From the IMG/VR virus record IMGVR_UViG_2877982868_000014: 64,000 nt of DNA, one strand, 5' to 3'. Origin of the DNA: a virus (Duplodnaviria > Heunggongvirae > Uroviricota > Caudoviricetes). The notes below the pieces were generated by a model, which ran no database searches, was not told the DNA's origin, and worked only from the letters and a program-made list of their open reading frames with translations. The position numbers were made by a program, and so were the translations under genes. Of the stretch, positions 4,867 through 6,835 are shown piece by piece; position 1 is the stretch's first letter; every line of letters begins with the position of its first letter.

Positions 4867-5022
4867 ATCCCTGAAACCTCGGTTTACGGGATACGGTAAA
4901 CAGGGCCGCGAATGCCCTGCCATCAAACGGTACGGCTGTTGCAGCAAGCAGGCTGGCAAATGCCCGCAGAATCAATGGTGTCGCCTTTGACGGCACGCAG
5001 GATATAAACATTACGTCAGGAA
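4867..5022. repeat. Inverted repeat (gin-proximal copy) containing gix-like crossover site at 4867..4892
   Basis: ATCCCTGAAACC-TC-GGTTTACGGGAT 26-bp imperfect palindrome; about 150 bp near-identical in inverse orientation to 6163..6317. Confidence 0.6.
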
Positions 5023-5246
5023 TGCCGGAATCAACGGCCAATCAGCGTTATGTTACAGGGGTAAGACTGGGAGCGCAGGCATTAAGCGGCGGACTGGAAT
5101 ATAATTACTCCCTGTCATCAGGAAATGTGATTACCGGTTTTAAGACTAACGGAGACTGGGAAATGCGTGGTGGTGATGACCGTGTTTATTACAGACAGAT
5201 ACAATATTGTATTAATGGGCATTGGGTATCCGCTGCAAGTATTTAA
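5023..5246 (+). CDS. Alternative tail-fibre C-terminal variable part (S-prime, silent in this orientation)
   Basis: Homologous to C-terminus of the 5924..6835 fibre (RYVTGVRLGAQ / VYYRQIQYCINGHW); lies inside invertible segment followed by tfa. Confidence 0.5.
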
Positions 5247-5367
5247 TTAACGGGGGCATAGCACACAGCAGCCAGCATCTGAAATATGCGTTATTTCAGA
5301 CAAGCATTGCCTGTATATGGCGATAGTATTATTCCTGTTTTTATCATTGATTTACATGGTGATGTTT

Positions 5368-5889
5368 ATGCAACTGATTAATGTCAAACGATATTACCCG
5401 AAAGACAAACCCTATGGTGAGGATGTTCAGTATTTCCAGAGTGAGGACGGAAGGGATTTTTATGAATCTATCCCGCTTTTCACAAAGAAATACAAACTCT
5501 GTATTTCGCCTGTAACGGGTATTATCTGCTCTGTTGCTGAAGATGTCTCTGCTTTATATCCGGCAGGTTTTACTGTTGTTGAAGTGGACGAACTGCCGGA
5601 AGGTGTGAATATTGACGGTAACTGGCAGTTTTCTGATGGCCTGATATCAAAGGTGCCGGTAAACTGGAAGACGGTTGCTGAAAAGCGTCGCTCATCGCTG
5701 CTCCAGGAAGCCAACGAAACCGTGGATGACTGGAAAACAGAATTAAAACTGGACATGATTAGCGATGAAAATAAATTACAGCTGACGCGCTGGATGGCGT
5801 ATATCCGACAGCTTAAAGAAATGCACTTTAATGATATTGCCAGTGAGGGGCATTACCAGGCGATTCCCTGGCCGGAAAAACCGGAATAA
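5368..5889 (+). CDS. Tail fibre assembly chaperone (Tfa/U-like)
   Basis: 173 aa from MQLINVKRYYPKD...; Tfa family features (N-terminal SEDGRDFYES, DGNWQF, C-terminal WPEKPE). Confidence 0.75.
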   Translation: MQLINVKRYYPKDKPYGEDVQYFQSEDGRDFYESIPLFTKKYKLCISPVTGIICSVAEDVSALYPAGFTVVEVDELPEGVNIDGNWQFSDGLISKVPVNWKTVAEKRRSSLLQEANETVDDWKTELKLDMISDENKLQLTRWMAYIRQLKEMHFNDIASEGHYQAIPWPEKPE

Positions 5890-5923
5890 TTCAGAGGGTG
5901 CATTCAGCACCCTTTTCTGTGGT

Positions 5924-6835
5924 TTACACTGAACTTACCGATCTCCAGGCATTATTAATATAAATCTGAACCGGGCGATAATAGACCCCACCGATATTGT
6001 CCGCAGACCGGGAGCCGGTTTCCTGCACGTTAATACCGGAAAGCATACAACCGGAAGGTGCGCTGTAATTCCATGATATTTCATTGCCTCCGGGTGAATG
6101 ATAGCTCTGTGCTCCAAGCTGAACATTCTGTACATACCGGCCATCTGCGGTTGACTGCGTCATTCCTGACGTGATGTTGATATCCTGCGTTCCGTCAAAA
6201 GGAACGCCATTAATATTTCTTGGGGTGGCGAGTCTGTTTGCTGCCACGGCGGTTCCACCCGATGGCAGGGCATCAGCAGCCTTATTTACCGTTTCCCGTA
6301 AACCGACGTTATCGATAAAAGCGCCTTTATCCGGAATGTCTGCGCCGTTCTGCTCCCTGCGCAGGTAACGGTTATCACCTTCGCTCCTGCTGTAAACATC
6401 CAGATTATTACGGGCGGTTTCCGCATTCTCCAGGTCGGCAAGGTTCTGATCCTTCGCCAGGGCATTAACGTCAGCGGGACCAAGACTGTTTTTTGTGGCA
6501 AGCGTCCCCAGACCAAGATAACCACGGGCCAGACGCTGGGCTTCCGCACCGGCATCAGCAATTTCTTTCAGGTTGTTTTTCCGGGAAAAGGCATTCGCAG
6601 CGATAATGGCTTTAATGGACAGCGTAAGCTGGTTTAACTGCGCCTTATCCGGCTGAATACTGGCTTCAGCCAGAATATTCAGCAGTTCGGCCTGGAGAAT
6701 ATTCAGCCAGTCCTGACCAATCCAGCTGATACCTTTTTGTCCGTCACCTTCGGTAAACCAGGTGGTGGTATTACTCTGCGCCGGAGCCAGTTCAGGCATA
6801 TTCGCCACGCCGGAATTATTATCAACATGGAACAT
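5924..6835 (-). CDS. Tail fibre protein (S-like), constant N-terminus plus currently fused variable C-terminus
   Basis: Start ATG overlaps upstream stop (TAATG); C-terminus ...VYYRPVQIYINNAWRSVSSV resembles P2 H-type fibre ends. Confidence 0.8.
   Translation of the reverse strand: MFHVDNNSGVANMPELAPAQSNTTTWFTEGDGQKGISWIGQDWLNILQAELLNILAEASIQPDKAQLNQLTLSIKAIIAANAFSRKNNLKEIADAGAEAQRLARGYLGLGTLATKNSLGPADVNALAKDQNLADLENAETARNNLDVYSRSEGDNRYLRREQNGADIPDKGAFIDNVGLRETVNKAADALPSGGTAVAANRLATPRNINGVPFDGTQDINITSGMTQSTADGRYVQNVQLGAQSYHSPGGNEISWNYSAPSGCMLSGINVQETGSRSADNIGGVYYRPVQIYINNAWRSVSSV
6163..6317. repeat. Inverted repeat (fibre-internal copy) with gix-like site at 6292..6317
   Basis: Reverse complement matches 4867..5022; core CCCGTAAACCGA shared with the gin-proximal site. 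Confidence 0.55.

What the first reader, a model, noticed from the sequence alone, without database searches (positions are those of the whole stretch)
4867..6317. Gin-invertible tail-fibre segment with long inverted repeats and a single tfa
About 150-bp near-identical inverted repeats (4867..5022 and 6163..6317), each with a gix-like 26-bp palindrome at its outer end, bracket a 1.4-kb segment directly beside gin. The segment holds two alternative fibre C-termini on opposite strands but only one tail-fibre assembly gene, co-oriented with the silent alternative. The currently fused variant therefore has no cis chaperone, unlike Mu G or P1 C segments which carry two.
Basis: partly seen in the sequence, partly recalled or inferred. 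Interest (0 to 1): 0.6.

Follow-up and report, generated by a model that had tools for sequence, protein, structure and literature searches.

The report
Compact invertible tail-fibre switch, one chaperone
This is the host-range switch of a Mu-like prophage of E. coli O157:H7: a miniature, real and active version of phage Mu's invertible G segment that carries one tail-fibre chaperone gene instead of two, and that one chaperone most likely serves both fibre tips.

Summary
The window matches E. coli O157:H7 strain Z1813 at 100%. Its left part is the right end of an Sp18-type Mu-like prophage. A Gin-family serine invertase (73% identical to Mu Gin) sits beside a 1,428-bp segment (4879-6306). Two gix-like sites with the same TC core bound the segment. 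In-silico inversion swaps the last ~125 residues of a Mu S-like fibre in frame. Both orientations occur in complete E. coli genomes (181 as in the window, 26 inverted).

The "near-identical" repeats are only 74.5% identical. They are homologous coding sequence, not the crossover sites.

Only one tfa exists in the 64 kb, and it is co-oriented with the silent tip. However, this Tfa family normally sits directly downstream of tips of the currently fused class. Related phages that lost gin and the alternative tip keep fibre and tfa convergent, with tfa under purifying selection (dN/dS 0.10-0.23).

The best reading is therefore one independently expressed Tfa shared by both tips, not a chaperone-less variant. 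No promoter for it was shown.

The invertible region of Sp18 was already noted in 2009. One-tfa segments are also common among Gin-linked loci. This is a variant of a known kind, of modest interest.

The parts
4252..4812 (-). gin-like serine DNA invertase (186 aa, catalytic Ser9 in YIRVST)
   Evidence: PF00239 E 5.8e-51 and PF02796 E 1.7e-14. 136/186 residues identical to Mu Gin.
4867..4892 (.). gin-proximal gix-like site ATCCCTGAAACC-TC-GGTTTACGGGAT (core TC at 4879-4880)
   Evidence: Half-sites match each other at 10/12; 19/26 identical to Mu gix.
4879..6306 (.). invertible segment (1,428 bp between the two core dinucleotides)
   Evidence: In-silico inversion gives an in-frame alternative fibre. 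The inverted form is found as one collinear piece at 99.1% identity in NZ_CP062782 and other genomes.
4881..5246 (+). silent alternative fibre C-terminus (Sv'-like, 'alt1' tip), without its own N-terminus
   Evidence: Translation. The tip matches the Mu S tip of 5YVQ (E 7.5e-24) and is 59% identical to Mu S. dN/dS 0.19 against L009.
5247..5367 (+). 121-nt non-coding spacer upstream of tfa; candidate carrier of tfa's own expression signals
   Evidence: Its 3' ~75 nt are conserved in gin+ and gin-less relatives. In other phages tfa follows the fibre gene by 2-17 nt. No significant promoter match was found.
5368..5889 (+). single tail-fibre assembly (chaperone) gene, 173 aa
   Evidence: PF02413 E 2.4e-18; phrog_136 E 3e-57. 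It is the only Tfa hit in the window. dN/dS 0.10-0.26 across the clade.
5893..5915 (+). G+C-rich hairpin followed by a T tract, between the tfa stop and the fibre stop (terminator-like in the tfa direction)
   Evidence: Found by the scan. The stem is conserved and the loop changed in L009.
5924..6304 (-). currently fused fibre C-terminus (Sv-like, 'cur' tip)
   Evidence: Translation. The tip is 55-66% identical to the tips of Rac-SA53, P2-like phages, SfMu S' and CR3. It matches the short tail fibre 9CUY (E 1.7e-14). dN/dS 0.05-0.11.
6293..6318 (.). fibre-proximal gix-like site, read on the minus strand TTATCGATAACG-TC-GGTTTACGGGAA (core GA at 6305-6306 on the plus strand)
   Evidence: Sequence shown. 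The count of 22/26 identical to Mu gix is my own, done by eye (the code was run one base out of register for this site). It lies in the codons for FIDNVGLRE, the same place as in Mu S (FIQNLGLQE).
6305..6835 (-). constant N-terminal part of the fibre (Sc-like, residues 1-~177); the whole fibre gene is 5924-6835, 303 aa
   Evidence: Residues 1-198 align to Mu S residues 1-191 (5YVQ/9KI1), E 1.4e-48 for the whole protein. The RefSeq start in relatives is MFHVDNNSG.
4875..5053 (.). left arm of the long inverted repeat (homologous coding sequence of the two variable parts)
6132..6310 (.). right arm of the long inverted repeat

Best explanation
A working Gin/gix host-range switch of an Sp18-type Mu-like prophage; in effect a half-size Mu G segment.

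How it works:
- The invertase (4252-4812) recombines two inverted 26-bp gix-like sites that share the core TC.
- This flips 1,428 bp and fuses the constant ~177 N-terminal residues of a Mu S-like fibre to one of two ~125-residue receptor-binding ends.
- Unlike Mu, P1 and e14, the segment carries one tfa. That one Tfa most likely folds both tips.
- With the alternative tip fused, tfa lies downstream of the fibre gene on the late transcript.
- With the current tip fused, tfa is convergent and must be transcribed from signals of its own, which travel with it. The conserved 121-nt leader, or sequence just upstream of it, is the candidate.

Shown:
- The sites, the in-frame fusion and both orientations in nature.
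- A single tfa.
- The partner preference of this Tfa family.
- gin-less frozen relatives, and purifying selection on both tips and on tfa.

Inferred:
- Tfa acts on both tips.
- Tfa is expressed in the convergent orientation.
For: The switch:
- Gin is 73% identical to Mu Gin, and the gix sites match Mu gix, with the same position in the fibre protein.
- In-silico inversion is in frame.
- 181 complete E. coli genomes carry the window orientation and 26 the inverted one.
- L093 and L092 differ at 7 of 3,000 positions once one of them is inverted in silico.
- In IMG/VR both orientations occur in two sub-lineages, with gin 98-100% and gin 81% identical to the window's.

The shared Tfa:
1. In five unrelated phages, tips of the current class are followed 2-5 nt later by a tfa.
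2. The N-terminal domain of the window Tfa is the fibre-binding domain, according to PMC9608196 citing the Mu complex 5YVQ. It is 67% identical to the Rac-SA53 Tfa and 41% to the CR3 Tfa, both partners of current-class tips, but only 33% to Mu U.
3. In 41 non-invertible IMG/VR loci, Tfas 53-58% identical to this one sit 5-17 nt after current-class tips.
4. Within the clade the same Tfa (97% identical) is paired with two different tips (alt1 and alt2). The same tip (alt1) is paired with Tfas only about 64-70% identical to each other. Specificity is therefore loose.
5. Nine IMG/VR loci and E. coli strains M18, M1, M3 and CI5 lack gin, the gin-side gix and the alternative tip (only about 10 codons of it remain). 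They keep fibre and tfa convergent, with the same tfa leader. Among them tfa has dN/dS 0.10-0.23 and the tip 0.11.
6. All five tips of the clade and Mu S share the C-terminal motif [YF][YIF]R.[VIL]Q..[ILV].[GN].W (read directly).
Against: - No promoter for tfa was demonstrated. The sigma-70 scan finds nothing in the spacer, and counts do not exceed shuffles.
- No Mu C-type TTAT-N6-ATAA site and no motif shared with the mom promoter region were found.
- The three spacer types (121, 79 and 51 nt) share little apart from a TAnnnT hexamer 39-44 nt before the ATG.
- Purifying selection on tfa in gin-less lineages could partly reflect alleles exchanged with gin+ phages.
- No direct evidence shows that Tfa binds the current tip.
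- The 181:26 orientation bias is unexplained and is confounded by clonal relatedness.
Confidence: 0.55

Rival explanations
1. The tfa serves only the co-oriented alternative tip. The currently fused tip folds without a phage-encoded Tfa, or borrows a Tfa in trans from one of the many other prophages of O157:H7.
For: - tfa is co-oriented with, and would be co-transcribed only with, the alternative tip.
- No promoter for the convergent orientation was found.
- Heterologous Tfa complementation is known from the literature (lambda Tfa for T4 gp38; my own recollection, not checked here).
Against: - Every relative of the current tip that was examined has a tfa immediately downstream.
- The window Tfa is closest to exactly those Tfas.
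- gin-less relatives with no alternative tip keep tfa intact under dN/dS 0.10-0.23.
- No other Tfa-family gene lies in the 64-kb window, which includes lambdoid tail genes.
Confidence: 0.2
2. The current orientation is an OFF state. Without a co-transcribed chaperone the fibre misfolds, so the switch toggles infectivity rather than host range.
For: - The late transcript in this orientation ends after the fibre gene, with tfa antisense.
- Mu-type fibres need their Tfa to fold (PMC9608196).
Against: - The current tip is strongly conserved (dN/dS 0.05-0.11, with synonymous sites near saturation).
- It is the majority orientation (181:26).
- Deletion derivatives frozen in this orientation persist as full-length Mu-like genomes with intact fibre and tfa.
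Confidence: 0.1
3. The segment acts mainly in the lysogen. Inversion changes which fibre-derived protein the prophage makes, altering susceptibility to other phages, as reported for PinQ/PinR and the e14 P segment (StfE2).
For: - There is a precedent: PMC12529663.
- The strong orientation bias among sequenced lysogens could reflect selection acting in the host.
Against: - The prophage looks complete, and Sp18 is predicted intact (PMC2669165).
- The fibre is preceded by a full baseplate operon.
- No evidence of lysogenic expression was obtained here.
Confidence: 0.07
4. A decaying relic. A second tfa (the U equivalent) was lost by deletion, and the segment, although still flipped by Gin, no longer matters to the phage.
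For: - Mu, SfMu and 7 of 39 surveyed Gin-linked segments have two convergent tfa genes, so a two-tfa ancestor is plausible.
Against: - The one-tfa layout is conserved across sub-lineages. These differ at about 17% of nucleotides, have different gin alleles (81% identity) and carry five different tips.
- All ORFs are intact and under purifying selection.
Confidence: 0.05

Closest known systems
Invertible host-specificity region of prophage Sp18 (E. coli O157:H7 Sakai)
   Same: It is the same element type. The Sakai-type copy (L002; WP_010917875/6) shares gin, the tfa (97% identical), the constant fibre part and the current tip. Asadulghani et al. [quoted passage not shown]
   Different: The window copy carries a different alternative tip (alt1, Mu S-like) and a 121-nt rather than 79-nt tfa leader. 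I found no mention of the single tfa or its orientation in the passages of that paper returned by a term search.
Phage Mu G segment (Gin/gix; S, U, U', S')
   Same: - The invertase is 73% identical.
- The gix sites are alike and cut the fibre protein at the same place.
- The constant N-terminal fibre part is homologous (E 1.4e-48).
- The tip fold family is the same.
- gin lies directly beside the segment, followed by com and mom.
   Different: - The segment is 1.43 kb, against about 3 kb in Mu.
- The variable parts are about 125 residues, against about 330.
- There is one tfa instead of two, and it follows its tip after 121 nt rather than 2-3 nt.
- A sialate-esterase-like cargo gene lies between gin and com.
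Shigella phage SfMu invertible region
   Same: Mu-like. Its S' tip is 60% identical to the current tip of the window.
   Different: SfMu has two convergent tfa genes, one directly after each tip.
e14 P segment (Pin) and P1/P7 C segment (Cin)
   Same: Serine-invertase switches of tail-fibre C-termini. Inversion is seen among sequenced genomes: 33% of 562 genomes for e14. Annotated P1/P7 C segments are listed.
   Different: e14 carries tfaE and tfaP, and P1 carries U and U'. These are two chaperones, one per tip.

Membership tests
Gin/Cin/Pin/Hin (Din) invertible tail-fibre segments | Small serine recombinase of the resolvase/invertase family with a catalytic Ser near residue 9-10 and a C-terminal HTH | tested here: met
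   PF00239 E 5.8e-51 and PF02796 E 1.7e-14. 136/186 residues identical to Mu Gin, with the YIRVSTNDQ motif.
Gin/Cin/Pin/Hin (Din) invertible tail-fibre segments | Two 26-bp crossover sites in inverted orientation with an identical central dinucleotide | tested here: met
   Sites at 4867-4892 and 6293-6318. They share the core TC and the inner half-site GGTTTACGGGA. They match Mu gix at 19/26 and 22/26 (my own count by eye).
Gin/Cin/Pin/Hin (Din) invertible tail-fibre segments | Inversion actually occurs (both orientations found) | tested here: met
   Comparative evidence only. 181 against 26 complete E. coli genomes. Near-identical copies occur in opposite orientation. Both orientations occur in IMG/VR. 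Not tested within a single culture.
Gin/Cin/Pin/Hin (Din) invertible tail-fibre segments | Inversion exchanges in-frame C-terminal parts of one fibre gene with a constant N-terminal part | tested here: met
   The in-silico inversion gives ...FIDNVGLRDTVNRAAN...SAASI*. That fused ORF is annotated in inverted genomes.
Gin/Cin/Pin/Hin (Din) invertible tail-fibre segments | Fis-dependent recombinational enhancer inside the 5' part of the invertase gene | tested here: inconclusive
   The first 120 nt of gin are 77-87% identical to Mu gin. The strict Fis-like pattern found in Mu at gene position 94 is not matched here (GAAGACAAAATGAGT).
Mu G / P1 C / e14 P architecture | Two convergent tfa genes, one directly downstream of each alternative tip | tested here: not met
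   There is one Tfa-HMM hit in the 64 kb. Mu and SfMu have two. The window tfa lies 121 nt after the silent tip and is convergent with the fused one.
Caudovirales tail-fibre assembly proteins (Tfa; PF02413) | Match to the family profile, with the conserved C-terminal helical part ending in W-P-x-x-P | tested here: met
   PF02413 E 2.4e-18, 67 bits against a cut-off of 22.1. phrog_136 E 3e-57. The C-terminus is ...IPWPEKPE.
Mu S-type tail fibre | N-terminal baseplate-attachment part and a C-terminal tip homologous to Mu gp49 | tested here: met
   Residues 1-198 align to Mu S 1-191. Residues 228-302 align to Mu S 434-503 (5YVQ; whole-protein E 1.4e-48). The alternative tip matches Mu S 436-503 (E 7.5e-24).

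The most novel reading that the evidence does not exclude
In Sp18-type Mu-like phages, one promiscuous Tfa with its own orientation-independent expression signals rides inside the invertible segment. It services every interchangeable receptor-binding tip (five tip types were seen). The chaperone has become a shared stand-alone module, which halves the size of the switch. Because Mu-type Tfa stays on the mature fibre, it may also contribute a constant element to receptor recognition in both host-range states.
Probability: 0.45. Interest if true: 0.4.

Novelty: new variant of a known kind. Interest (0 to 1): 0.3.

Why it matters
If one Tfa really folds several different tips and is expressed regardless of segment orientation, three things follow.
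- Tfa-tip specificity in this widespread tip family is looser than the "one tip, one chaperone" layout of Mu, P1 and e14 suggests.
- This is useful for engineering phage or tailocin host range, because tips could be swapped without swapping chaperones.
- It explains why compact one-tfa inversion modules are common in enterobacterial prophages.

Otherwise this is an ordinary, already noted host-range switch of a well-known O157:H7 prophage.

Tried and rejected
- Sigma-70 promoter scans of 4000-7200 and of the gin-less locus L103 gave counts within the shuffle expectation. Nothing was found in the tfa leader. A TATAAT-containing site at the L103 deletion junction is only suggestive.
- A search for a Mu C-activator site (TTAT-N6-ATAA), or for any 12-mer shared with the mom promoter regions, upstream of tfa or on the gin side, found nothing.
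- A strict Fis-site pattern in the 5' part of gin matched in Mu but not here.
- Pfam gave no family for the fibre or for either tip. Homology came from PDB sequences and PHROGs instead.
- A scan of genome contigs with the Tfa returned no confirmed locus.
- The idea that the gin-less relatives show the ancestral layout was rejected. They keep a 10-codon remnant of an alternative tip (...ITAYYRLII*) at the junction, so they are deletion derivatives.
- The idea that the tfa is the specific partner of the co-oriented tip was rejected. Its closest relatives accompany the other tip class.
- Structure prediction of a Tfa-tip complex was not attempted. The tool folds single chains, whereas the fibre is a trimer.
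Full report
**What is there**

The window is 100% identical over 2.8 kb to E. coli O157:H7 strain Z1813. Its first ~38 kb are a Mu-like prophage, read here from its right end. All of the following lie on the minus strand unless stated.
- mom (1-738) and com (692-937).
- DUF826, DUF1378 and a 679-aa sialate-esterase/DUF6645 protein.
- A serine invertase (4252-4812).
- The fibre gene (5924-6835).
- Mu gp48 and baseplate J.
- Further on, Mu transposase (35808-37952).

The fibre is a short homologue of Mu S.
- Residues 1-198 align to residues 1-191 of Mu S (PDB 5YVQ/9KI1, E 1.4e-48 for the whole protein).
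- The last ~75 residues align to the Mu S distal tip.

**Checking the observation**

An inverted repeat is present, with arms 4875-5053 and 6132-6310 (179 nt, 75% complementary). Random window pairs give a mean of 46% and a maximum of 53%. The repeat is real but not near-identical. It is the homologous proximal coding sequence of the two variable fibre parts.

The true crossover sites are the 26-bp gix-like sites at the outer ends.
- Gin side: ATCCCTGAAACC-TC-GGTTTACGGGAT, at 4867-4892.
- Fibre side, read on the minus strand: TTATCGATAACG-TC-GGTTTACGGGAA, at 6293-6318.
- They share the TC core and the inner half-site.
- They match Mu gix (TTATCCAAAACC-TC-GGTTTACAGGAA) at 19/26 and 22/26 (my count by eye from the sequences).
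- They cut the fibre at FIDNVGLRE, the same place as FIQNLGLQE in Mu S.

Inverting 4879-6306 in silico fuses the constant part in frame to the second C-terminus (...GLRDTVNRAAN...HWVSAASI*), which is then followed by tfa. The only tfa is 5368-5889 on the plus strand (PF02413). A Tfa profile finds no other in the 64 kb.

**Does it invert?**

Searching complete E. coli genomes with the window form and with the in-silico inverted form gives two counts.
- 181 genomes have at least 80% collinear coverage of the window form.
- 26 genomes have the same for the inverted form.
- Seven of the 26 are single-piece matches over the whole query, including O157:H7 Z869 at 99.1%.

After in-silico inversion, the copy in AUSMDU00014361 differs from the oppositely oriented copy in Z1835 at 7 of 3,000 positions. 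In IMG/VR both orientations occur in the sub-lineage with gin 98-100% identical and in a second one with gin 81% identical.

The bias of 87% to 13% is unexplained and is confounded by clonal relatedness. For comparison, 33% of 562 genomes carry the inverted e14 P segment (PMC12529663).

**The single tfa**

Mu and SfMu have S-U and U'-S', with a tfa 2-3 nt after each tip. Here the tfa follows the silent tip after a 121-nt spacer and converges on the fused tip. A hairpin with a T tract lies between the two stop codons.

The layout is conserved.
- The Sakai/Sp18-type copy has a different alternative tip (alt2), a 79-nt spacer and a Tfa 97% identical.
- An O91:H21 copy only 83% identical in DNA has the same two tips and a Tfa about 70% identical.
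- The sub-lineage with gin 81% identical has two further tips (A and B) and again one tfa.
- In every case the side without a co-oriented tfa carries a tip of one class (cur or A, motif VQ[ED].G...ADN[IV].GVYYR). The tfa side varies (alt1, alt2, B).

**Whose chaperone is it?**

Tips of the current class occur in Rac-SA53, P2-like phages, SfMu S', CR3 and phAPEC8. Each time they are followed 2-5 nt later by a tfa.

According to PMC9608196, which summarises the Mu complex 5YVQ, the variable N-terminal domain of Tfa binds the fibre tip and the conserved C-terminal domain drives trimerisation. The N-domain of the window Tfa compares as follows.
- 67% identical to the Rac-SA53 Tfa.
- 41% identical to the CR3 Tfa.
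- 33% identical to Mu U.

Among 80 IMG/VR loci encoding relatives of this Tfa, 41 are non-invertible. In these, a Tfa 53-58% identical sits 5-17 nt after a current-class tip. By association, then, this Tfa family is the natural partner of the tip it is not co-oriented with in the window.

Pairing inside the clade is loose. One Tfa is paired with alt1 or with alt2, and one tip (alt1) is paired with Tfas only about 64-70% identical to each other. All tips share the C-terminal [YF][YIF]R.[VIL]Q...W motif.

**The frozen relatives**

Nine IMG/VR loci, and the chromosomes of E. coli M18, M1, M3 and CI5, lack gin, the gin-side gix and the alternative tip. The order in them is esterase gene (minus), tfa (plus), fibre with a cur or A tip (minus).

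Homology to the window resumes exactly at the stop codon of the alternative tip (window 5241) and includes the whole tfa leader. A 10-codon remnant (...ITAYYRLII*) shows that these are deletion derivatives, not ancestors.

In these phages tfa can never lie downstream of a fibre gene. Even so, selection is clearly purifying.
- Among them tfa has dN/dS 0.10-0.23, with dS 0.11-0.43.
- Their only tip has dN/dS 0.11.
- Window against gin-less tip: dN/dS 0.06, with synonymous sites saturated.
- alt1 tip: dN/dS 0.19.

The simplest reading has three parts.
- tfa is expressed when convergent.
- The current-class fibre is functional.
- It probably uses this Tfa.

**What is not shown**

I could not identify the promoter that this model needs.
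- Sigma-70 scans are at background.
- No C-activator-like site or shared late-promoter motif was found.
- The three leader types share only a TAnnnT hexamer 39-44 nt before the ATG.
- The Fis enhancer test is inconclusive.
- Binding of Tfa to either tip is inferred only.

**Comparison and novelty**

The element is the invertible host-specificity region of Sp18-type prophages. It was noted in 2009 as having genes 'distinct from those of Mu' (PMC2669165). Mechanistically it meets the defining features of Gin/gix switches, except that the enhancer test is inconclusive. It fails only the two-tfa architecture of Mu, P1 and e14.

That failure is not rare. I surveyed 39 Gin-adjacent segments in IMG/VR that are bounded by inverted repeats.
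- 23 have one detectable tfa.
- 7 have two.
- 9 have none.

This survey is crude and partly redundant. In the passages of the papers returned by my term searches I found no mention of the one-chaperone layout or its convergent orientation. I rate the finding a variant of a known kind, of modest interest.

Noticed in passing
window 1503-4152 (- strand): A 679-aa protein with a sialate O-acetylesterase (SASA) domain and DUF6645 lies between gin and com/mom of this Mu-like prophage, together with the small DUF1378 and DUF826 genes. From memory, this cargo block is typical of lambdoid Stx prophages (NanS-p-like). Mu itself has nothing between gin and com.
   Followed up: partly
L102-L106, L108, L113, L103, L121 (IMG/VR); L175 = E. 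coli M18 NZ_CP010219 3405912-3412212: These are deletion derivatives of the same Mu-like clade. They have lost gin, one gix site and all but about 10 codons of the alternative tip, which freezes fibre and tfa in convergent orientation. Both genes remain intact and under purifying selection.
   Followed up: yes
window 4879-6306, compared with complete E. coli genomes: There is a strong orientation bias: 181 genomes with the window orientation against 26 inverted. A freely flipping switch sampled at random would give about 1:1. Clonal inheritance, biased recombination and selection could not be separated.
   Followed up: partly
LC727881.1 35677-75644 and LC727895.1 (phage records): The same Mu-like phage (93% identical across the switch) is annotated as inserted inside Stx2c- and Stx1a-converting phage genomes, so it is a phage within a phage.
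   Followed up: no
L012-L091 (IMG/VR loci around Gin relatives): Gin-adjacent segments bounded by inverted repeats are very diverse: 1.3-5 kb long, with 0, 1 or 2 detectable tfa genes. At least one (L071) has three tandem or inverted tip cassettes, reminiscent of multi-site Min-type systems.
   Followed up: partly
window 49157-59947 (- strand): Tail genes of a second, lambdoid prophage are present: a collagen-repeat side tail fibre (49157-50509), a J-type tip attachment protein (51202-54750) and a tape measure (57269-59947). No Tfa-family gene was detected next to them with my profile.
   Followed up: no
window 5893-5915, and L103 4026-4045: The hairpin between the tfa and fibre stop codons is terminator-like on the tfa strand in the window (cur tip). 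In the A-tip relative L103 it is terminator-like on the fibre strand. The element seems to travel with the tip cassette.
   Followed up: no
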